A model generated the notes under the pieces. It was not told the origin of the DNA, ran no database searches, and saw only the letters and a program-made list of their open reading frames with translations. From the UHGV virus genome UHGV-0084588: 64,000 bases of DNA; one strand, 5' to 3'. This document shows, piece after piece, positions 19,639 to 62,628 of this stretch. The DNA comes from a virus. Every line of letters begins with the position of its first letter. Position 1 is the stretch's first letter. Made by a program: the position numbers and the translations under genes.

Positions 19639-20910
19639 ATGGCAAATTTCGCAAAAACTCGCGCCGCTCGTGAATCGATGGAAGCGGCCGATGAAGTAAT
19701 CGACGGTATCAGCAACGTTGAACCGGCAGAAGAGAACCTGGACGTCCAACTTGCGGACGTTGCATCTATCGACGGTCAGCTCGATCAGCTGGAAACCGAC
19801 GGTGAAACCCTGGCTGCCGATACCGAGCGTACTGAAGACGCTATCGAACAGGCGGAAGAAGCCGTTGCTAACGGTGAAGAAATGCCGGAAGAAGCGGTTG
19901 CCCTGCACGAAGTGGCACAGGAATCCATCGCACGTCGTTGGTGCCTGGAACGTACTAAACTGGCTCGCGAATCCTATCGTCGTGGTCGTGGTATGACTGC
20001 TGCTGCCCAGGAAGGTTGGAAAGAAACCCTGAAAGATCTTTACGATCGTTTCATTCAGTTCTGTAAAGAAGTGATTGCGAAGATCAAAGACCTGAAACTG
20101 AAATATTTCAACGTCGGTAAGACTGCACAGAAACGTGCGAAGAAATATCAGGAAATGCTGCGTAAGCTGGGCAAACAGAAGAAAGATGAGATCTCCGGTG
20201 GCTTTATCACCAAGCTGTCCATCGAAGGTAAATTCGATGCTGCTGGCTCCATCGCTATTGCGAAAGAAGTTACCGCTGGTAAAGCTAAAGGTTCCATCAG
20301 TGTTCTGGAAAAACAAGCTGGCGAAGCTGTAACTGCTGTTGCCAAAGGTGACGATGACGCATTCAAAGCGATGCGTGGCGATCAGCCGGTAGAACTGTTT
20401 GGTAAAGCTGCGTCTAAACTGCGCTCTCTGCCGAACTTTGAAAAAGGTGATGCGTCTAAACTGCTGGCTCTGCCGGGTAACGCATACGTCCAGGCTGGTA
20501 CTAAAGAACTGGCTGGCGGCCACAAGTTCACCGCAATTGCATTCATGAGCACTGGCGACGCTTCTGACGATAAAGACGTGAAAACTCCGTCTGTTTCTGA
20601 AATGGCTGGTGCTGCTTCTGCTCTGGAAGCGATCGGTAAAGGCTTCGAAGCTGTACTGAAAGATTTCCGTGCTTATGACGCCGAAATCGTGAAGCTGCAA
20701 CAGGCTGCTGAGAAAGCTGCTAACGCGCTGAACAACGAAAAAGACGAAAGCAAATGGGATGGCCTGCGTAACGCACGTCAAGCTGCTGATTGGTCTGTTA
20801 AGAACTACCAGACCCTGAACCGCGCCGTTAGCTATGTTGCTAACACCGTTATTAGCGGTCTGAACGGCTACCTGGGTGCTGGTATCGGTGCTTACGAAAA
20901 GTCTAAATAA
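19639..20910 (+). CDS. abundant phage protein, paralog A (possible high-copy head or internal protein)
   Basis: 423 aa; codon-optimised; acidic N-terminal ~95 aa ending at conserved VAQES; paralogous to next gene (shared N-terminus, KLGKQKKDEISGGFI core, C-terminus LNGYLGAGIGAYEKSK). Confidence 0.8.
   Translation: MANFAKTRAARESMEAADEVIDGISNVEPAEENLDVQLADVASIDGQLDQLETDGETLAADTERTEDAIEQAEEAVANGEEMPEEAVALHEVAQESIARRWCLERTKLARESYRRGRGMTAAAQEGWKETLKDLYDRFIQFCKEVIAKIKDLKLKYFNVGKTAQKRAKKYQEMLRKLGKQKKDEISGGFITKLSIEGKFDAAGSIAIAKEVTAGKAKGSISVLEKQAGEAVTAVAKGDDDAFKAMRGDQPVELFGKAASKLRSLPNFEKGDASKLLALPGNAYVQAGTKELAGGHKFTAIAFMSTGDASDDKDVKTPSVSEMAGAASALEAIGKGFEAVLKDFRAYDAEIVKLQQAAEKAANALNNEKDESKWDGLRNARQAADWSVKNYQTLNRAVSYVANTVISGLNGYLGAGIGAYEKSK
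20161..20195 (+). repeat. 35-bp block identical between tandem paralogs (copy in paralog A)
   Basis: cgtaagctgggcaaacagaagaaagatgagatctc also at 21557-21591. Confidence 0.8.
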
Positions 20911-20992: not shown

Positions 20993-22258
20993 ATGGCGAA
21001 TTTCTACAAAAACAAAATTGCTCGTGAGTCTATGGAGTCTACCGCTACTGTAGTTCCAGACGGCATCGAACTGCCAGCAGAATCCGTAGAAGGTACTCTG
21101 GCCGATATCGAGCATGACACCAAACCGATCGAAGCCCTGGACGCTGACGCTGAACTGCTGGCAGAAGACGGCGACGAAACTGACGCTCAGCTGGATGTTC
21201 TGGATGAAGCTCAGGCCGCTGCTGACGGTGAAGGTGCTGGCGAAGACGGCGAAGACCCGATGGACGCCGAAGAAGATATGCCGGACGACGCTGCGACCGC
21301 GCTGGACGTTGCTCAGGAATCTATCCGTTCTCGTTGGAACTTCGAACACCGTTCTTCTGTTGCTCACGAATCTTACGGTTCTCGTAACCGTCGCCAGGTG
21401 GCTCGTGAATCCCTGTGGGAAGACATTAAAGCCTTCCTGGGCCGTATTCTCGATTGGCTGAAAGAACAAGGCCGTAAACTGAAAGATCGCTGGCTGAAAT
21501 TCCACAACCAGGGTAAATCTATCCAGGCGCGTGCTAAGAAATACGATGAAGTTATTCGTAAGCTGGGCAAACAGAAGAAAGATGAGATCTCTGGTGGCTT
21601 CATCAAGTCTCTGTCTATCGATGGCAAGTTCGTCGGTGATAATATTCCGAAACTGAAAGGTATCCTTAACCAGGTTTCCACATTCTATAGCGCTAAGATG
21701 CCTGCCATGGCCTCTAAAGCTGCTGAAGTGGTTTCCGATGTTACCAAAGGTAACGGTGTTAAAGTTGAAAAACTGAAAGCCGACTTTACCGAACTGTCCA
21801 AACAAGACAGTCTCCAAAACTTCAAACTCGGTAACATGGCAGTGAAAACCGAGTATGACAACGAAGGCGGCTTCAGCTCCACTTTTGTTGAAGCTGAAAA
21901 TAGCGTTGAAACTAGCGTGAAAACTCCGTCTGTTGGCGAACTGGCTAAAATCAATGCTCTCTTCAACGAAGTGGGTAAACAGATCGAGAAGAACGTTCAG
22001 GATTATCGTAAAGTCGAAAGCGCGCGGAAAACTTTTGAAGATAATATCGATAAGCTCCTGAAAGAAGTCGATAAAGTTAAGATCGACGAAAAACCGGAAC
22101 TGACCGAAGGTGTACGTGCTGCCCGTCGTTTCATCACCAGCGTTAACCAGGGCCTGTCTCTGGGTGAGAAGGTTATTGCTTCTACTCAGAAACACCTGGC
22201 CGGTGGTCTGAACGGCTACCTGAGTGCTGGTATCGGCGCTTACGAAAAATCTAAATAA
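20993..22258 (+). CDS. abundant phage protein, paralog B
   Basis: 421 aa; same architecture as paralog A, 35-nt identical DNA block and near-identical last 51 nt; strong terminator follows. Confidence 0.8.
   Translation: MANFYKNKIARESMESTATVVPDGIELPAESVEGTLADIEHDTKPIEALDADAELLAEDGDETDAQLDVLDEAQAAADGEGAGEDGEDPMDAEEDMPDDAATALDVAQESIRSRWNFEHRSSVAHESYGSRNRRQVARESLWEDIKAFLGRILDWLKEQGRKLKDRWLKFHNQGKSIQARAKKYDEVIRKLGKQKKDEISGGFIKSLSIDGKFVGDNIPKLKGILNQVSTFYSAKMPAMASKAAEVVSDVTKGNGVKVEKLKADFTELSKQDSLQNFKLGNMAVKTEYDNEGGFSSTFVEAENSVETSVKTPSVGELAKINALFNEVGKQIEKNVQDYRKVESARKTFEDNIDKLLKEVDKVKIDEKPELTEGVRAARRFITSVNQGLSLGEKVIASTQKHLAGGLNGYLSAGIGAYEKSK
21557..21591 (+). repeat. 35-bp block identical between tandem paralogs (copy in paralog B)
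   Basis: Identical to 20161-20195; last 51 nt of both genes also near-identical. Confidence 0.8.
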
Positions 22259-22322: not shown

Positions 22323-22339
22323 CGATTAAAAACAATTTC

Positions 22340-22378
22340 AGATATATATTACCTAGGTGAGATTACACAGTAATCTCT
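22340..22378 (+). promoter_or_regulatory. phage early-promoter-like element with downstream hairpin, copy 1
   Basis: AGATATATattacctagGTGAGA; contains TATATTAC; stem gagattac/gtaatctc; 35 nt upstream of CDS 22413; follows a terminator. Confidence 0.55.
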
Positions 22379-24800: not shown

Positions 24801-24832
24801 AAGGGGACTTCGGTTCCCTTTTATTTTTTTTT
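24801..24832 (+). terminator. rho-independent terminator (repeat family B)
   Basis: ggggac-ttcg-gttccc hairpin plus ttttattttttttt. Confidence 0.75.
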
Positions 24833-30470: not shown

Positions 30471-30593
30471 TATCGCTAAACGCCACGCAGAAGTCATTTC
30501 ACCATTAAGGCGACTAATTACCCTTTAAAAAGAAAATCGCGTTAGAATGCGTTTTAGAGCGTTCTAGAGGGTATATGGATTCAAAAAGATTTC

Positions 30594-30632
30594 AGATATA
30601 TATTACCTAGGTGAGAGTTTACGTAATACTCA
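30594..30632 (+). promoter_or_regulatory. phage early-promoter-like element, copy 2
   Basis: Identical 23-nt core to copy 1, followed by imperfect hairpin; upstream of small lipoprotein gene. Confidence 0.55.
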
Positions 30633-30662
30633 TTTATCGAATACCTAATTAGGAGTTATATC

Positions 30663-30806
30663 ATGATTTCTGTAAAACACAAAAAAGCTATCTTCGCTGT
30701 TGTTATCGCTGTTGTTCTGGGTTGCCTGTACCTGGACATCGACAAAGGCTACGACACTTGCATCGACAACGGTAATTCCGTTGCACAGTGCACTGGTCGT
30801 GGTTAA
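30663..30806 (+). CDS. small putative lipoprotein (47 aa), absent from the ORF track
   Basis: Hand translation MISVKHKKAIFAVVIAVVLGCLYLDIDKGYDTCIDNGNSVAQCTGRG; AGGAG SD; basic n-region, hydrophobic core, lipobox-like VLGC; optimised codons; flanked by promoter element and terminator. Confidence 0.6.
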   Translation: MISVKHKKAIFAVVIAVVLGCLYLDIDKGYDTCIDNGNSVAQCTGRG

Positions 30807-30811
30807 TGTAT

Positions 30812-30844
30812 AAGGCACCTTCGGGTGCCCTTAATTTTTTTATT
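30812..30844 (+). terminator. rho-independent terminator
   Basis: ggcacc-ttcg-ggtgcc then cttaatttttttatt; right after small lipoprotein ORF. Confidence 0.75.
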
Positions 30845-30860
30845 AATTGGAGCATAAAAG

Positions 30861-31676
30861 ATGATTACTATTAAAGATTATTTTCCGCGTGGGCTGAGCA
30901 ATGAAAACTTCGTTCCAACTGAAGACATTGCCATCGTTGCAGAGTCTAACGATAAGTCTTTTAAACTCTACTTGAGTACAGCAGCAGGAAAATCTACTCT
31001 TATCCTTCGTGAACCTGAAGTGATAAGCATCTGCTCGTTTGGGGGCGGTGTAGAAGGAACGATTAACTGGTTGAAATCCAGAATGCATCGTTTACTTATC
31101 GTGAATACCGATCCTACGATTCGATTACAGCAATTGAAATCGTTGAATGAAGTTATCGTCGGATTATTGGAACACGAAACGTTCGGTAGTGCTGAGATTG
31201 CGGAAGCGATTAAATCTGTAGAACTGATCGAGTGGAGTGATATCGAATACGAACGTGCTGCGTTATTCGCAATGTACGGTGACGATAATCCCGTTGTGTT
31301 TGCACAAACGTTGGATAATGTTACCGTGACGGCGCGCGTATTGTTCGGCTTGCAACGTGTTGAGTTTGAACTGAAACACGTTTATGTAAGTAATACTCCA
31401 GAGATGGTGGAAACGTTGACTCGTGCGTTCGCTTACCCGTTAGACGGAGAATGGGAACAGCAGATTAATGAAGCGTTAGGCGCAATGCTGTTCTTAGCAG
31501 GCACACTAAGGAAAGAAGAGAAATTAGAAGGTCGTGTCTACCCAGAATACGATTTTGTTTGTGAAGAATGTGGAGCACAGTATCAAATACGTGTTCCTTT
31601 AACCGGCCTGACAATCCCGAAAGCCAACGTGGAATGTAAAGAATGTGGCCATGTTCAATACGTAGCGACTAAATAA
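30861..31676 (+). CDS. hypothetical protein with C-terminal zinc-ribbon (CxxC..CxxC)
   Basis: 271-aa ORF; C-terminus FVCEECGAQ...ECKECGH; terminator follows. Confidence 0.7.
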   Translation: MITIKDYFPRGLSNENFVPTEDIAIVAESNDKSFKLYLSTAAGKSTLILREPEVISICSFGGGVEGTINWLKSRMHRLLIVNTDPTIRLQQLKSLNEVIVGLLEHETFGSAEIAEAIKSVELIEWSDIEYERAALFAMYGDDNPVVFAQTLDNVTVTARVLFGLQRVEFELKHVYVSNTPEMVETLTRAFAYPLDGEWEQQINEALGAMLFLAGTLRKEEKLEGRVYPEYDFVCEECGAQYQIRVPLTGLTIPKANVECKECGHVQYVATK

Positions 31677-31756: not shown

Positions 31757-31883
31757 TACTAACTAATAAAGGAGGGGCTGTTCCAGCAGCCCCTCCTCCT
31801 CGCTTTAACTTTTCGAAAGAGAAGTTAAAGCAGTAGGGACTGTATAGGCAGTCCCTACTTAGGCGGCTAACGAACTGTTAGCC
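31757..31883 (+). repeat. stem-loop module cluster 1 (four consecutive hairpins)
   Basis: TACTAACTAATAAAGG leader, then H1 ggaggggctg/cagcccctcc, H2 ctttaacttttc-gaaa-gagaagttaaag, H3 gtagggactg/cagtccctac, H4 ggctaac/gttagcc; precedes micro-ORF 31914. Confidence 0.6.
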
Positions 31884-31913: not shown

Positions 31914-32099
31914 ATGCCTGATTTACGTAAGGAAGTTTTAAAGCAAACGAAATTATCACAGCTTAGGGAAAGTGAGTTCAAGGCACACATAAACGACTAT
32001 GTCATGCGTGGCCTGATTACTGTCCCTGGACCACAACCCAGTCGTGGGACTGTGAAGCGTAAAGCTTCGTACAGTAACCTGCCGAGATGGTGGTCGTAG
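31914..32099 (+). CDS. small hypothetical protein (61 aa), micro-ORF paralog 1
   Basis: GTGAGG SD; shares F22, D/E28-Y29-V30, G33-L34, P38 at identical positions with ORF 32256-32417; flanked by repeated stem-loops. Confidence 0.45.
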   Translation: MPDLRKEVLKQTKLSQLRESEFKAHINDYVMRGLITVPGPQPSRGTVKRKASYSNLPRWWS

Positions 32100-32108
32100 G
32101 TATAATAA

Positions 32109-32196
32109 AAAGGGGTGCACCACCACCCCTTTTCATAGCTTTAACTTTTCCAAAGAGAAGTTAAAGCAGCAGAGACTGGCGGAACAGTCTCTGCTG
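32109..32196 (+). repeat. stem-loop module cluster 2 (three hairpins)
   Basis: H1 aaaggggtg/caccccttt, H2 identical arms to cluster 1 with caaa loop, H3 cagcagagactg/cagtctctgctg (different sequence, same position and shape). Confidence 0.6.
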
Positions 32197-32255: not shown

Positions 32256-32417
32256 ATGAACGAATATCAAATACAGATGTTCAATACCGCGATGCGAAAT
32301 CGTGAAAAACAAATTCAGTTTAACCAACGCATGGACGAATATGTTCGTCTCGGCCTCGTTGCGGCACCGAAAACGGTTAACAACCACAATGTTCAGCAAC
32401 CATCTCTAAGGAGATAA
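32256..32417 (+). CDS. small hypothetical protein (53 aa), micro-ORF paralog 2
   Basis: Hand-translated MNEYQIQMFNTAMRNREKQIQFNQRMDEYVRLGLVAAPKTVNNHNVQQPSLRR; AAAGG SD; paralogous to 31914-32099. Confidence 0.4.
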   Translation: MNEYQIQMFNTAMRNREKQIQFNQRMDEYVRLGLVAAPKTVNNHNVQQPSLRR

Positions 32418-34671: not shown

Positions 34672-36966
34672 ATGAAAGATACCCGAATCTCTAATCTGGA
34701 GAAACTCGTACAAGCTGGTAACTCGCTGGTACAAAGCGTCATTAGTAACAACAGTGCTGGCGAAATGTGGAACACCATCGTTGCTGGTGAATCTGTACGT
34801 AGCAACACGAAAGTTTTTGGTACCCTGCGTGACGACGCTGCACAGCACTACGCAAACGCGTTTGCTGGCGGTAAGAAAATGTCCCACGCTGCGGAAGTTG
34901 CTTCTGCAATGATTCTGGGTGCTGCTGGTCACGGTATGGACCTGCAAGAAAAAGTAGCGCAAGAATACGCTAAACCAGAATTCCATAGCCGTTTTAACCT
35001 GGACGTTGCGATTCCTGGTTCCCAAGCTGGTAACGGCGACTGGGGCAAAGAGCGTATGGTTGTCGCTCAGGAATACTACACCAACAAAGACTACGACAAA
35101 AACCTGGGTCTGACCTGGACGCTGAACGTACGTGCTCTGGAAACTCAGTCTCGTTTCGCTGAGACTCTGTTCCCGACCATTACCGTTGACACCAACGATG
35201 TTGGTATTACCGTACGTACCAAAGTGACCACCGTTTCTCGCGGTGTAATGAACGCACTGCTGAGCAAAGACGTTGTTGAAGATCATCGTCGTCCGCTGCA
35301 CAACGCACTGACCGACCACACCGTTCTCCAGGACGAAGCGATCAACATCGTTCCTTACGTAATGGAAACCGGTGAAAACGCTGAATACTTCGTAAGCGAA
35401 GATCTGGTGCCGAACGAATCTGTTCGCCTGGGCCGTGTACCTCCGTACCCGACTAACTACCTGAGCTTTGCTAAAGACACTCTGAACCTGTTCCAGCTGT
35501 CTGCGCATCCGGGTATCGTTCAGGAAGGTTACGACGAAACTGATGAAATCGCACCGGGTTGTGCTCTGGGCAGCCTGCTGATTTCTGTACGTAAACCGAC
35601 CGAAGAAGCGAAAGCAGGTAAGTTCATCAAACTGCACGTTCGTGACATGCAGTTCGCAACCTTCCAGCGTCCTGCTGAAGGTGATGGCCGTGAGCTGGTA
35701 CTGCAATTCCGTCGTACTGCGTTCTCTCTGAACGCGAAAACTACCGACTGGACTGGTGCGGCTATTCCGGCACTGCAAGCGCTGGGTCAGAACTCTTACA
35801 CCCTGCGTTATGTGATCACCATCAACATGTCTCTGTTCACTACCGGTCAGTTCGGTGGTAAAGTTGACATCGCTGGTCACAAACTGGAAATCGAAGGTCT
35901 GTACGACGCTACCGGTAACAAAGTTGATACCAAATCTGGTACCGGCAAAGTTATCCTGGACGGTCTGAAACTTGAACTGATGGGCTGGCGCTTCGATGGT
36001 ACTCGTACCAACGAAAACCGTCGTACCCAGGGTCTGCTGCTTGACCCAATCTGGGAACAAGAAAACTACAAACTGCAATACGGTTCTCCGATTCTGACCA
36101 AGTCTCCGGTTGGCGTTGAATACGACGACACCGAACGTCTGGACGACCTGATTTCCGCAGTTAACATCCGTAACGAACAGCTGGCTATCACTCAGACGCT
36201 GTCTTACACCGAAGCGGTACGTAACGCTGCTGCAAGCATGATCACTCCGTGGGACAAACCGGCCATTCGTGGTCTGGGCCGTCACTGGGTTGCTCCGTGG
36301 TTCAAAGAGTCTGACTACAACGTTGATGAAGTTGTACAGTCCCTGGATACCAAAGATGCACTGATCAACGCTCGTCAGGGCCTGGTACAGCGTATCGGTA
36401 ATCAGGTAACTCAGGCTATCCAGGAATCTCGCTTCATTCCTGCGCTGCGTCTGTACACCGCCGATCCGGACATTCTGCCGAAAGTTGTTATTGCAACTGA
36501 CGAACCGACTGCATCTATGCTGCTGCTGGTACAGGGCGACCAACGTCTGCTGGGCGATCGCTACGAATACGAAGTGATCACCACCAACGATGACCGCTGG
36601 CGTATCTACAACGCAGCTGACGGTTCCTGGACTCGTCGTCTGCAATGGTTCCTGAAAGTTCCGACTGCGGACGATGGTTCCTACAACGTGCTGAACTGGG
36701 GTAACCACTTCTGGTCTCCGATCATGGTTACTAACATCAACATTCAGCGTAACGGCTCTACCTCTAAAGAGCTGGCCGTACAGCCGCGCAACGCACACAT
36801 CTGCCACTGCCCGATCACTGGTCTGATCTGGGTTAAAGGCATCACCAAACTGGTTGAAGAAAAACTGGCTTACAATGTTTCTGTTGAACAGAACGGTCAG
36901 AAGCAAACCGACGGTGGTGTAGCAGGTAACGTTGCTGGCGATGGCAAAGCTGCTGCTGGTAAGTAA
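34672..36966 (+). CDS. putative major capsid protein (764 aa)
   Basis: Strongly optimised codons imply very high expression; size fits ~750-aa capsid proteins of phiKZ-like phages; AQE motifs at aa 96-98 and 132-134; strong terminator after stop; tail sheath or shell protein not excluded. Confidence 0.5.
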   Translation: MKDTRISNLEKLVQAGNSLVQSVISNNSAGEMWNTIVAGESVRSNTKVFGTLRDDAAQHYANAFAGGKKMSHAAEVASAMILGAAGHGMDLQEKVAQEYAKPEFHSRFNLDVAIPGSQAGNGDWGKERMVVAQEYYTNKDYDKNLGLTWTLNVRALETQSRFAETLFPTITVDTNDVGITVRTKVTTVSRGVMNALLSKDVVEDHRRPLHNALTDHTVLQDEAINIVPYVMETGENAEYFVSEDLVPNESVRLGRVPPYPTNYLSFAKDTLNLFQLSAHPGIVQEGYDETDEIAPGCALGSLLISVRKPTEEAKAGKFIKLHVRDMQFATFQRPAEGDGRELVLQFRRTAFSLNAKTTDWTGAAIPALQALGQNSYTLRYVITINMSLFTTGQFGGKVDIAGHKLEIEGLYDATGNKVDTKSGTGKVILDGLKLELMGWRFDGTRTNENRRTQGLLLDPIWEQENYKLQYGSPILTKSPVGVEYDDTERLDDLISAVNIRNEQLAITQTLSYTEAVRNAAASMITPWDKPAIRGLGRHWVAPWFKESDYNVDEVVQSLDTKDALINARQGLVQRIGNQVTQAIQESRFIPALRLYTADPDILPKVVIATDEPTASMLLLVQGDQRLLGDRYEYEVITTNDDRWRIYNAADGSWTRRLQWFLKVPTADDGSYNVLNWGNHFWSPIMVTNINIQRNGSTSKELAVQPRNAHICHCPITGLIWVKGITKLVEEKLAYNVSVEQNGQKQTDGGVAGNVAGDGKAAAGK

Positions 36967-57266: not shown

Positions 57267-57306
57267 AGGTACCACCCAACGGTGGTGCCTATATTTTATT
57301 TTTTCT
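57267..57306 (+). terminator. rho-independent terminator
   Basis: Stem aggtaccacc/ggtggtgcct then atattttattttttc; immediately precedes promoter-like element copy 3. Confidence 0.7.
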
Positions 57307-57307
57307 C

Positions 57308-57346
57308 AGATATATATTACTTAAGTGAGAGTTACAATTAACTCTT
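57308..57346 (+). promoter_or_regulatory. phage early-promoter-like element, copy 3
   Basis: AGATATATattacttaaGTGAGA; stem agagtt/aactct; upstream of HTH regulator gene; follows a terminator. Confidence 0.55.
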
Positions 57347-58444: not shown

Positions 58445-58478
58445 GGGGAACTTCGGTTCCCCTTTCTTTTTTGTTTTT
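58445..58478 (+). terminator. rho-independent terminator (repeat family B)
   Basis: ggggaa-cttcg-gttcccc then tttcttttttgttttt. Confidence 0.75.
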
Positions 58479-62578: not shown

Positions 62579-62597
62579 TGACAGTCTAAAAAACTTA

Positions 62598-62628
62598 AGA
62601 TATATTTCATCTATGTGAGAATTCTCAC
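62598..62628 (+). promoter_or_regulatory. promoter-like element, copy 4 (variant)
   Basis: AGATATATttcatctatGTGAGA with same N9 spacing; GTGAGAATTCTCAC perfect palindrome; upstream of CDS 62652. Confidence 0.45.

What the first reader, a model, noticed from the sequence alone, without database searches (positions are those of the whole stretch)
30663..30806. Unannotated 47-aa, codon-optimised putative lipoprotein in its own promoter-to-terminator unit
The gene is below the ORF-track length cutoff but has a good SD, optimised codons and a lipoprotein-type signal: basic n-region MISVKHKK, uncharged hydrophobic core AIFAVVIAVV and lipobox-like VLGC. The predicted 27-residue mature lipopeptide has three Cys and no Asp at +2, implying outer-membrane sorting in an enterobacterial host. 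It sits alone between promoter-like element copy 2 and terminator 30812-30844. Small early phage lipoproteins are known to block the receptor or exclude superinfection (T5 Llp and Cor-type proteins). A spanin role seems less likely because no endolysin or i-spanin partner is adjacent.
Basis: partly seen in the sequence, partly recalled or inferred. Interest (0 to 1): 0.55.

Follow-up and report, generated by a model that had tools for sequence, protein, structure and literature searches.

The report
Abundant early jumbo-phage membrane micro-protein

Summary
ORF 30663-30806 has an AGGAG ribosome site, an intrinsic terminator 8 nt after the stop, and copy 2 of a four-copy promoter-like element upstream. 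Its codon bias is the highest in the window (Fop 0.96; CAI 0.86 against the phage's own capsid and internal head genes, 10.9 SD above other genes). It is the orthologue of SPN3US gp66 (phrog_8574, unknown function). The gene is intact and syntenic in every properly assembled relative, and within the window's own clade variable sites are 7 synonymous to 2 non-synonymous. The upstream element AGATATATATTAC-6N-G matches the published early promoter type read by jumbo-phage virion RNA polymerases.

The lipoprotein reading is only weakly supported. Cys21 is present in 11 of 25 distinct family peptides (Val, Ser, Thr or Phe elsewhere). The box VLGC passes only the permissive PROSITE rule. The five residues after the Cys are hydrophobic, unlike 13 true lipoproteins. 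E. coli MgrB, a proven 47-aa N-in/C-out membrane peptide with a dispensable membrane Cys, scores identically. Ten tail residues are invariant (Y30, C33, G37-N38-S39, C43-T44-G45-R46-G47) and the charge bias is positive-inside. Best reading: an early, abundant, single-pass inner-membrane peptide showing a disulfide loop to the periplasm. Its target is unknown.

The parts
30578..30616 (+). Conserved promoter-like element, copy 2 of 4 in the window (GATTCAAAAAGATTTCAGATATATATTACCTAGGTGAGA)
   Evidence: Repeat family D2 with copies at 22324, 30578, 57292 and 62582. It is the only DNA stretch here shared by megablast with SPN3US-like and Erwinia jumbo phages.
30594..30606 (+). AT-rich core AGATATATATTAC, the predicted early promoter read by the virion RNA polymerase
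   Evidence: 11 of 13 positions match the AR9 early consensus AAATATATATTAT-(6N)-G+1 (PMC5312081). Such motifs mark early operons in jumbo phages that encode their own RNA polymerases (PMC7598289). The TATATTAC core occurs once in 14 of 16 relative loci, always upstream of the orthologue, and was not found in two Wellingtonvirus loci.
30613..30613 (+). Predicted transcription start (G, 6 nt after the core); inferred, not measured
   Evidence: Spacing rule taken from phiKZ, phiR1-37 and AR9; position read.
30615..30631 (+). Small 5'-terminal hairpin of the leader (GAGU...ACUC)
   Evidence: A hairpin at or within 2 nt of the predicted +1 forms in all four leaders downstream of the promoter copies. 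None is individually significant against shuffles.
30651..30655 (+). Shine-Dalgarno AGGAG, 7-nt spacer to the ATG
   Evidence: Read. Every orthologue has AGGA, GAGG or AGAGG at the same distance.
30663..30806 (+). 47-aa coding sequence, orthologue of SPN3US gp66 (phrog_8574)
   Evidence: Within the window's clade, 7 synonymous against 2 non-synonymous variable sites. Fop 0.957 and CAI 0.858.
30663..30686 (+). Basic N-terminal flank MISVKHKK (predicted cytoplasmic)
   Evidence: Net +4 including the N-terminus; +3 or +4 in all family members, against 0 to -3 after the hydrophobic run.
30687..30734 (+). Hydrophobic segment AIFAVVIAVVLGCLYL (residues 9-24): predicted membrane anchor, or alternatively a signal peptide
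   Evidence: 16-residue apolar run here, 15-22 in relatives. AlphaFold2 gives one continuous helix over residues 4-35.
30723..30725 (+). Cys21 codon (TGC), the proposed lipobox Cys
   Evidence: Cys in 11 of 25 distinct family peptides; Val, Ser, Thr or Phe in the rest. The context passes PS51257 only.
30735..30803 (+). Acidic 23-residue tail DIDKGYDTCIDNGNSVAQCTGRG (predicted periplasmic) with the invariant Cys33-x9-Cys43 pair
   Evidence: Invariant in alignment A1: Y30, C33, G37, N38, S39, C43, T44, G45, R46, G47. The disulfide is inferred.
30814..30843 (+). Intrinsic terminator: GGCACC-UUCG-GGUGCC followed by a T-run
   Evidence: Terminator scan, fold at -12.3 kcal/mol, member of the UUCG-loop terminator family D7.

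Best explanation
The ORF encodes a bitopic inner-membrane micro-protein and is the orthologue of SPN3US gp66.

Shown:
- The gene is real, conserved and under purifying selection.
- It has a strong ribosome site and the most biased codon usage in the window.
- It sits 50 nt downstream of a conserved element of the type used as early promoters by jumbo-phage virion RNA polymerases, and 8 nt upstream of an intrinsic terminator.

Inferred:
- Right after DNA injection the virion RNA polymerase starts at about G30613 and makes a monocistronic mRNA of about 230 nt, which is translated heavily.
- The basic N-terminus stays in the cytoplasm.
- Residues about 9-24 (to 27 in relatives) insert as a signal-anchor helix, N-in and C-out.
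- The roughly 20-residue acidic tail is exposed in the periplasm, where Cys33 and Cys43 form a disulfide that fixes the invariant NGNS...CTGRG loop.
- That loop binds a conserved envelope component of the enterobacterial host, or a phage protein. The architecture resembles that of MgrB, a 47-aa E. coli peptide that controls the kinase PhoQ.
- Cys21 is an ordinary membrane-helix residue, not an obligatory lipidation site.

The most likely biological role, given early timing, abundance and periplasmic exposure, is to change the state of the envelope early in infection. Blocking entry of further phage DNA is the best-precedented such role (T4 Imm and Sp are early membrane proteins of that kind; this is from general knowledge, not tested here). 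The role is the weakest step.
For: Gene reality and selection:
- 63 phage records hold an orthologue in the same slot, between the gp64/gp65 orthologues and the minus-strand helicase.
- It matches phrog_8574 over its full length, E 3e-23.
- 11 metagenomic genomes of the window's own clade differ at 7 synonymous and 2 non-synonymous sites.

Expression:
- Fop 0.957 and CAI 0.858, above the capsid and internal head genes.
- Orthologues also have raised Fop, 0.67-0.93 against a local 0.49-0.66, and all have a Shine-Dalgarno sequence.

Early promoter:
- A four-copy element matches the published vRNAP early promoter type, with a G 6 nt downstream.
- The core lies upstream of the orthologue in 14 of 16 relative loci, at -67 in SPN3US against -64 here.
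- Other copies drive an HTH regulator and small unknown genes.

Topology:
- N flank +3 to +4 and C flank 0 to -3 in all members.
- Apolar run of 15-22 residues; Cys-less members have favourable 19-residue insertion sums, e.g. SPN3US -2.1 and P0004 -2.8.
- AlphaFold2 gives one helix over residues 4-35.

Against lipidation as the defining trait:
- 14 of 25 peptides lack Cys21.
- P0006 has Cys21 preceded by Val at -1, which is not a lipobox.
- The window protein fails the stricter lipobox patterns.
- Residues +2 to +6 are hydrophobic, unlike 13 true lipoproteins, p = 2e-4.
- MgrB behaves identically in these tests and is a proven N-in/C-out peptide, with a dispensable C16 and essential C28 and C39.
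Against: - No transcript, protein, topology or disulfide data exist for any family member. Literature searches found nothing on gp66.
- The window protein has the joint-shortest apolar run among the Cys-bearing members (16 residues, as in P0006; only the Cys-less pEa6, 15, is shorter), followed by D25 and D27. Its 19-residue insertion sum (+2.8) is unfavourable and close to that of real signal peptides such as Lpp (+3.0). In this particular phage, cleavage or lipidation is therefore more plausible than in its relatives.
- The lipobox patterns and hydrophobicity sums are crude stand-ins for LipoP, SignalP or DeepTMHMM, which were not available.
MgrB was checked against 11 residue positions named in PMC8404706.
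- The AlphaFold model used a single sequence (pLDDT 76.6).
- The promoter assignment rests on analogy with AR9, phiKZ and phiR1-37, not on data from an SPN3US-like phage.
- The proposed role has no direct support.
Confidence: 0.6

Rival explanations
1. It is a true lipoprotein in this phage and in the other Cys21-bearing lineages. Lgt lipidates Cys21, signal peptidase II cleaves after Gly20, and the 27-residue lipopeptide (Leu at +2) is carried by Lol to the outer membrane, where it could mask a receptor or block entry as T5 Llp or Cor do. Cys-less relatives would then do the same job from a membrane-helix anchor.
For: - It meets PROSITE PS51257: Lys within the first 7 residues, an uncharged h-region, Gly at -1 and Cys at position 21.
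- 10 of 11 Cys21-bearing peptides have Gly or Ala at -1.
- The window protein has the joint-shortest apolar run among the Cys-bearing members, and an insertion sum similar to those of real lipoprotein signal peptides.
- Cys21 is kept in all 12 genomes of its clade.
- Early expression would suit an exclusion function.
Against: - Cys21 is absent from 14 of 25 family peptides, including SPN3US, and its distribution across genera is patchy.
- Position -3 is never Leu, and -2 is Leu in most Cys-bearing members. The window protein fails DOLOP and G+LPP, which all five controls pass.
- Residues after the Cys are hydrophobic, unlike 13 true lipoproteins.
- P0006 has Val at -1.
- MgrB gives the same pattern result and is not lipid-modified in function: C16A is fully active.
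- An outer-membrane location in some lineages and an inner-membrane location in others would be odd for a tail that is invariant.
- There is no similarity to Llp, Cor or entericidin families.
Confidence: 0.25
2. The hydrophobic segment is a cleavable Sec signal peptide. Signal peptidase I cuts after the small residues at -3 and -1 (VLG|C here, AFA|V in SPN3US, TFG|S in pSal-SNUABM-04), releasing a soluble 26-27-residue disulfide-bonded periplasmic peptide.
For: - Column 20 (-1) is a small residue in 22 of 25 family peptides: Gly, Ala or Ser in 19 (the SPase I-allowed set), Thr in 3, Val in 3.
- Column 18 (-3) is usually Ala, Val, Thr or Leu.
- The basic n-region is typical of Sec signals.
Against: - There is no polar c-region before the putative site, and the apolar stretch continues for 3-7 residues beyond it.
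- Apolar runs of 18-22 residues in most members are long for cleavable signals and typical of membrane anchors.
- AlphaFold2 shows no helix break.
Confidence: 0.07
3. It is not an envelope effector at all. It could be a small abundant virion or assembly component, as its structural-gene-like codon bias might suggest, or a lysis-cassette protein (holin, antiholin or spanin-like).
For: - Its codon bias equals or exceeds that of the capsid and internal head genes.
- It lies just downstream of a structural module, gp62-gp64.
- There are weak PHROG hits to an Rz-like spanin (E 0.04) and a holin (E 0.055).
Against: - It sits behind an early-type promoter, not in a late operon.
- The weak PHROG hits cover only the hydrophobic segment.
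- No endolysin or partner gene is adjacent.
- gp66 is not mentioned in the main text of the SPN3US virion and mutant study. This is weak evidence, because small hydrophobic peptides are hard to detect by mass spectrometry.
- Two invariant Cys in an acidic tail fit an oxidising compartment.
Confidence: 0.03

Closest known systems
SPN3US gp66 / phrog_8574 (uncharacterised 45-50-aa proteins of Seoulvirus, Machinavirus, Wellingtonvirus and Erskinevirus jumbo phages)
   Same: It is the orthologue. Identity is 53% over the full length, the genomic slot is the same, the promoter lies at the same distance in SPN3US (-67 against -64), and the C-terminal motif is the same invariant one.
   Different: - The window protein carries Cys21 and has a shorter hydrophobic run with two Asp residues right after it.
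- It stands alone between promoter and terminator. In most relatives it is followed, and often abutted, by other small genes.
- Its phage clade has no cultured representative in the phage collection searched.
E. coli MgrB (47-aa inhibitor of the sensor kinase PhoQ)
   Same: - Same length.
- Basic N-terminus, a single N-in/C-out helix with a Cys in an almost identical context (VVLAC against VVLGC).
- A periplasmic tail of about 20 residues whose two Cys are the key residues.
- Identical outcome in the three lipobox pattern tests.
   Different: There is no detectable homology: hhalign probability 15%, over the membrane segment only, and no Pfam MgrB hit. The tail motifs are unrelated and the Cys spacing differs (x9 against x10). 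MgrB is a host feedback regulator, not a phage early gene. This is a resemblance in architecture, not membership.
T5 Llp and Cor-type phage lipoproteins (receptor-blocking superinfection exclusion)
   Same: It is a small early phage protein aimed at the envelope, and in this phage it has a lipobox-like sequence.
   Different: The Cys is not conserved in the family, the lipobox is non-canonical, the region after the Cys is hydrophobic, and there is no sequence similarity. No receptor-binding-protein gene is adjacent.
T4 Imm and Sp (early membrane proteins that block secondary DNA entry)
   Same: Early expression, a membrane anchor and periplasm-facing parts make these the best functional precedent for the proposed role. 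This comparison rests on general knowledge and was not tested here.
   Different: They are about twice as long and no similarity was detected. Exclusion by SPN3US-like phages has not been reported in the papers searched.
Early promoters of virion RNA polymerases in phiKZ-related and AR9-type jumbo phages
   Same: A conserved AT-rich element of 10-13 nt with a G start 6 nt downstream, repeated upstream of several small-gene operons. It matches the AR9 consensus at 11 of 13 positions.
   Different: Not mapped experimentally in any SPN3US-like phage. The flanking GTGAGA and the 5' hairpin are specific to this group.

Membership tests
Bacterial/phage lipoprotein (Lgt/Lsp substrate) | Basic n-region followed by an uncharged h-region of 7-22 residues | tested here: met
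   MISVKHKK followed by an apolar run over residues 9-24.
Bacterial/phage lipoprotein (Lgt/Lsp substrate) | Lipobox [LVI][ASTVI][GAS]C | tested here: inconclusive
   VLGC passes the permissive PROSITE PS51257 rule but fails DOLOP and G+LPP because of Leu at -2. Five control lipoproteins pass all three. MgrB, which is not a lipoprotein, gives the same result as the ORF.
Bacterial/phage lipoprotein (Lgt/Lsp substrate) | The +1 Cys is conserved among orthologues | tested here: not met
   Cys in 11 of 25 distinct peptides; Val, Ser, Thr or Phe in the others.
Bacterial/phage lipoprotein (Lgt/Lsp substrate) | Polar, flexible region right after the +1 Cys | tested here: not met
   Mean KD of +2 to +6 is +1.1 to +2.3 in the family and -2.5 to +0.1 in 13 true lipoproteins, with no overlap.
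Bacterial/phage lipoprotein (Lgt/Lsp substrate) | Diacylglyceryl modification and globomycin-sensitive cleavage | not testable with these tools
   Needs palmitate labelling and globomycin treatment of a tagged construct.
T5 Llp / Cor / entericidin small lipoprotein families | Sequence similarity to the family profile | tested here: not met
   No such family among Pfam hits up to E = 10, and none among PHROG hits up to E = 1, for any of 15 members.
phrog_8574 (SPN3US gp66-like proteins) | Full-length profile match | tested here: met
   E 3.4e-23 over residues 1-47 of a 47-position profile; all 15 members match.
phrog_8574 (SPN3US gp66-like proteins) | Conserved genomic position | tested here: met
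   It lies between the gp64/gp65 orthologues and the minus-strand divDNAB helicase in all loci read.
Small N-in/C-out bitopic membrane peptides of the MgrB type (architecture class) | Single hydrophobic segment with a positive-inside charge bias | tested here: met
   N flank +3 to +4 and C flank 0 to -3 in all members; apolar run of 15-22 residues; one continuous predicted helix.
Small N-in/C-out bitopic membrane peptides of the MgrB type (architecture class) | Conserved periplasmic Cys pair | tested here: met
   C33 and C43 are invariant. The disulfide itself was not tested.
MgrB family (homology) | Sequence or profile similarity to MgrB | tested here: not met
   hhalign probability 14.7%, over the membrane segment only; no Pfam MgrB hit.
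Jumbo-phage vRNAP early promoter | Conserved AT-rich element of about 10-13 nt repeated upstream of several operons, with a start site 6 nt downstream | tested here: met
   Four copies in the window. The core is upstream of the orthologue in 14 of 16 relative loci. AGATATATATTAC-6N-G compares with AAATATATATTAT-6N-G in AR9.
Jumbo-phage vRNAP early promoter | Rifampicin-resistant transcription in the first minutes of infection from that site | not testable with these tools
   No transcript data for SPN3US-like phages were found.
Spanin (Rz/Rz1 or unimolecular) | Periplasm-spanning length, a partner or a second anchor, and a lysis-cassette context | tested here: not met
   The tail is only about 20 residues, there is no embedded or adjacent partner, the promoter is early-type, and the PHROG Rz-like hit (E 0.04) covers the membrane segment only.

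The most novel reading that the evidence does not exclude
gp66-like peptides could be a phage counterpart of host micro-protein regulators such as MgrB. In this reading an abundant peptide, made immediately after injection, uses its invariant disulfide loop to bind and silence a conserved periplasm-facing host machine. Candidates are an envelope sensor kinase, a divisome component whose action would cut through the mid-cell phage compartment, or the DNA entry route used by competing phages. The anchor would have switched repeatedly between a plain membrane helix and a lipid anchor in different lineages.
Probability: 0.15. Interest if true: 0.65.

Novelty: new member of a known kind. Interest (0 to 1): 0.36.

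Why it matters
The function of the many small genes of jumbo phages is an acknowledged open question (stated in the 2026 review PMC13282480).

This gene stands out among them:
- It is the only gene of the variable early cassette between gp65 and the helicase that BLAST recovers between this phage and SPN3US.
- It is first, or nearly first, after an early promoter.
- Its codon bias is higher than that of the capsid gene.

Together these point to a protein needed in large amounts at the cell envelope from the first minutes of infection. That makes it a well-defined, cheap experimental target: 47 residues, three Cys, and SPN3US as a genetic model.

The analysis also gives a practical warning. A PROSITE-type lipobox match in a very short ORF is not enough to call a lipoprotein.

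Tried and rejected
- **Entericidin-like lipoprotein.** I recalled a GNS-containing tail in EcnA/EcnB, but there is no Pfam hit even at E = 10.
- **Homology to T5 Llp, Cor or MgrB.** None found.
- **Spanin or holin.** Only weak PHROG hits over the membrane segment (E 0.04-0.055), and the context is wrong.
- **Solved structures.** Only chance hits, to the CRF receptor ectodomain at E 0.03.
- **Known RNA in the leader or ORF.** Nothing; one tmRNA hit at 11 bits against an 84-bit threshold.
- **Bacterial homologues.**
  - The single genome hit lies in a shadow frame inside a 751-aa gene, so it is chance.
  - The word-indexed protein search found one near-identical metagenomic protein.
  - The exhaustive HMMER search found only six family representatives, plus a borderline 381-aa repeat protein.
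- **Obligate partner gene.** The ~60-aa genes that abut the orthologue in relatives are soluble and acidic, are not universal, and are absent here.
- **Apparent truncations in SPFM phage records.** These records are locally scrambled assemblies, not frameshifts.
- **Expression or phenotype data for gp66.** None found.
- **The 5' hairpin in the leaders.** Present in all four, but not significant individually.
- **Literature search for TATATTAC.** Not informative.

Full report
**1. What is there**

Window 30663-30806 (+) is an ATG-to-TAA ORF of 47 codons. It encodes MISVKHKKAIFAVVIAVVLGCLYLDIDKGYDTCIDNGNSVAQCTGRG.
- AGGAG lies at 30651-30655, 7 nt before the ATG.
- A GGCACC-UUCG-GGUGCC hairpin followed by a T-run starts 8 nt after the stop.
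- Upstream, 30578-30616 is copy 2 of a four-copy direct repeat. The other copies are at 22324, 57292 and 62582.

**2. It is a real gene**

The window comes from a jumbo phage related to Salmonella phage SPN3US and the Erwinia Machina-, Wellington- and Erskine-viruses.
- The helicase is a divDNAB type and the 764-aa ORF at 34672-36966 is a PhiKZ-type major capsid protein.
- The neighbours are 55-86% identical to SPN3US gp63, gp64, gp65 and gp73.
- tblastn finds the 47-aa product in 61-63 phage records. It always lies between the gp65 orthologue and the minus-strand helicase, and is annotated as a 45-47-aa hypothetical protein. The SPN3US orthologue is SPN3US_0066, i.e. gp66.
- The family is phrog_8574, function unknown, matched over its full length at E 3e-23. 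It has no Pfam family, no solved relative, and no bacterial homologue. The one genome hit is a shadow-frame artefact.
- An exhaustive HMMER search of 1.8 billion representative proteins found only six family representatives.
- Eleven metagenomic contigs of the window's own clade (nine genome-length, 200-229 kb, plus two fragments) carry the gene. Seven variable sites are synonymous and two are non-synonymous, which shows selection on the protein.
- The partial matches in some SPFM phage records come from locally scrambled assemblies, not frameshifts.

**3. Expression signals**

Codon usage is the most striking feature.
- 44 of 46 scorable codons are preferred E. coli-type codons (Fop 0.957). 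That ranks first of 60 genes. The capsid gene scores 0.84, two internal head protein genes 0.79 and 0.77, and the mean is 0.51. Other frames score 0.27-0.41.
- The result does not depend on my E. coli codon list. With the phage's own capsid and internal head genes as reference, CAI is 0.858. Those genes themselves score 0.68-0.75 and the other 56 genes 0.28 +/- 0.05. None of 1543 46-codon windows in other genes reaches the ORF's value.
- Orthologues share the trait, with Fop 0.67-0.93 against a local background of 0.49-0.66, and all have a Shine-Dalgarno sequence.

The upstream element reads AGATATATATTAC-CTAGGT-G.
- Published work states that jumbo phages encoding their own RNA polymerases have a conserved AT-rich motif near -10 upstream of early operons, read by the virion polymerase (PMC7598289).
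- AR9 early promoters are AAATATATATTAT-(6N)-G+1, and phiKZ and phiR1-37 also start 6 nt after the element (PMC5312081).
- The match here is 11 of 13 positions with a G at the right distance, at 30613.
- The TATATTAC core occurs once in 14 of 16 relative loci and always upstream of the orthologue. It is at -67 in SPN3US and SEGD1 against -64 here, and further upstream with one to three small genes in between in other phages. It was not found in the two Wellingtonvirus loci.
- The other copies in the window drive an HTH DNA-binding protein and two small unknown genes.

I infer, without transcript data, a monocistronic early mRNA of about 230 nt running from about 30613 to the terminator.

**4. 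Lipoprotein or membrane helix?**

Across 25 distinct family peptides the alignment needs only short N-terminal offsets and one 3-residue insertion in P0004.
- Invariant residues in A1 are Y30, C33, G37, N38, S39, C43, T44, G45, R46 and G47. A basic N-terminus and an apolar run of 15-22 residues are also conserved.
- Column 21, the proposed lipidated Cys, is Cys in only 11 peptides. These are the window clade, ChrisDB and pEa9, Caitlin, the Kwan/Wellington group, and P0006. It is Val, Ser, Thr or Phe in the other 14, including SPN3US, and the distribution across genera is patchy.

Four further tests bear on the question.
- The window protein passes the permissive PROSITE PS51257 rule but fails the DOLOP and G+LPP lipobox patterns, because Leu occupies -2. 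Lpp, Pal, EcnA, EcnB and lambda Rz1 pass all three.
- P0006 has Cys21 preceded by Val, which is not a lipobox at all.
- The five residues after the Cys are hydrophobic in every Cys-bearing member (mean Kyte-Doolittle +1.1 to +2.3). They are polar in 13 genuine lipoproteins (-2.5 to +0.1). The ranges do not overlap, p = 2e-4.
- E. coli MgrB is a 47-aa peptide shown to be N-in/C-out. Its C16A mutant is fully active, and its periplasmic C28 and C39 are essential (PMC8404706). Its context is VVLAC against VVLGC here, and it gives exactly the same pattern results.

Other observations point the same way.
- Charge bias is positive-inside in all members: N flank +3 to +4, C flank 0 to -3.
- A single-sequence AlphaFold2 model (pLDDT 76.6) shows one helix over residues 4-35 and a short helix over 40-43.

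One caveat remains. The window protein has the joint-shortest apolar run among the Cys-bearing members (16 residues), with D25 and D27 close behind. Its 19-residue insertion sum (+2.8) resembles that of true signal peptides such as Lpp (+3.0). Lipidation in this particular lineage therefore cannot be excluded, and I give it 0.25.

**5. Most likely mechanism**

*Shown:* a conserved, selected, very strongly codon-biased small gene with a good ribosome site. It lies behind a vRNAP-type early promoter and in front of a terminator.

*Inferred:*
- The virion polymerase transcribes it immediately and it is translated heavily.
- It inserts as an N-in/C-out signal-anchor.
- Cys33 and Cys43 form a periplasmic disulfide that presents the invariant NGNS...CTGRG loop.
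- The loop binds a conserved envelope component.

The role is unknown. Early timing, abundance and periplasmic exposure best fit an early change of the envelope state. Exclusion of further DNA entry has the best precedent (T4 Imm and Sp, from general knowledge). Control of a host membrane machine in the manner of MgrB is the more novel alternative.

No obligate partner gene exists. The abutting ~60-aa genes in relatives are soluble and acidic, and they are absent here.

**6. Comparison with known systems**
- It is a member of phrog_8574, the gp66-like proteins.
- It resembles MgrB in architecture but is not homologous: hhalign probability 15%, over the membrane segment only.
- It is not a detectable relative of Llp, Cor, entericidins or spanins.
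- The promoter belongs to the published class of jumbo-phage early promoters.

**7. Novelty and verdict**

The gene family is already catalogued as hypothetical, so this is a new member of a known kind, though an uncharacterised one.

What is new here:
- The evidence that it is an exceptionally codon-biased, early-promoter-driven envelope micro-protein.
- The finding that the lipobox is a lineage-specific feature and probably incidental.

Interest is moderate (0.36). It is a clear and tractable candidate among the unexplained small genes of jumbo phages, but nothing in it contradicts current understanding.

Noticed in passing
window 22324-22362, 30578-30616, 57292-57330, 62582-62620: Four copies of the early-promoter-like element (AGATATAT[A/T]T..C....GTGAGA). 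Each is followed 64-70 nt later by a Shine-Dalgarno sequence and an ATG. The genes driven are a 222-aa unknown, the 47-aa ORF, an HTH DNA-binding protein (phrog_7126) and an 89-aa unknown. All four leaders begin with a GAGA...UCUC hairpin at the predicted +1, which may be a 5' stabiliser.
   Followed up: partly
window 19639-20910 and 20993-22258: Tandem paralogous genes (423 and 421 aa) matching internal head protein phrog_2497. Their codon bias is very high (Fop 0.79 and 0.77), second only to the capsid gene and the 47-aa ORF.
   Followed up: partly
window 31790-31859 and 32126-32195, with ORFs 31914-32099 and 32256-32417: A 70-nt repeat containing two hairpins precedes each of two small paralogous ORFs (61 and 53 aa, sharing a D-x-Y-V-x-x-G-L motif). 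Neither has a PHROG match. They occupy the slot where SPN3US has the 48-aa basic peptides gp71 and gp72.
   Followed up: no
window 24803-24832, 30814-30843, 58446-58475: A family of near-identical intrinsic terminators with a UUCG tetraloop (GGGRMC-TTCG-GKYCCC followed by a T-run) (family D7).
   Followed up: no
window 30861-31676: The 271-aa gene just after the terminator ends in a double CxxC zinc-ribbon-like motif (CEECG...CKECG), as SPN3US gp70 does. It matches phrog_10180 only weakly and was not recovered by BLAST against gp70. gp70 appears in the SPN3US paper's table of genes that carried an amber mutation or are expected to be essential.
   Followed up: partly
P0007 (381-aa protein from the representative library), residues about 160-300: Four tandem repeats, AY-x-x-C-I-G-N-G-(N/A)-S-A-S-Q-C, resemble the family's Cys-x9-Cys loop (E 9e-4). 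The protein has an N-terminal signal and membrane segments, and only a sub-threshold Pfam thionin hit. The loop may be a more widespread small disulfide module.
   Followed up: partly
L035, L036, L037 (GenBank LR535912, LR535907, LR535917; Salmonella phages SPFM14, SPFM9, SPFM20): These public records are locally scrambled around gp66 and gp67, with segments of the two genes interleaved, and the record description reads 'XXX'. This produces false truncated matches.
   Followed up: yes
L018-L020, L038-L044, L006: The window's phage clade is represented only by metagenomic assemblies (about 200-229 kb, plus two fragments). It has no near-identical record in the cultured-phage collection, where the only megablast matches to this region are the ~40-50-bp promoter element.
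   Followed up: partly
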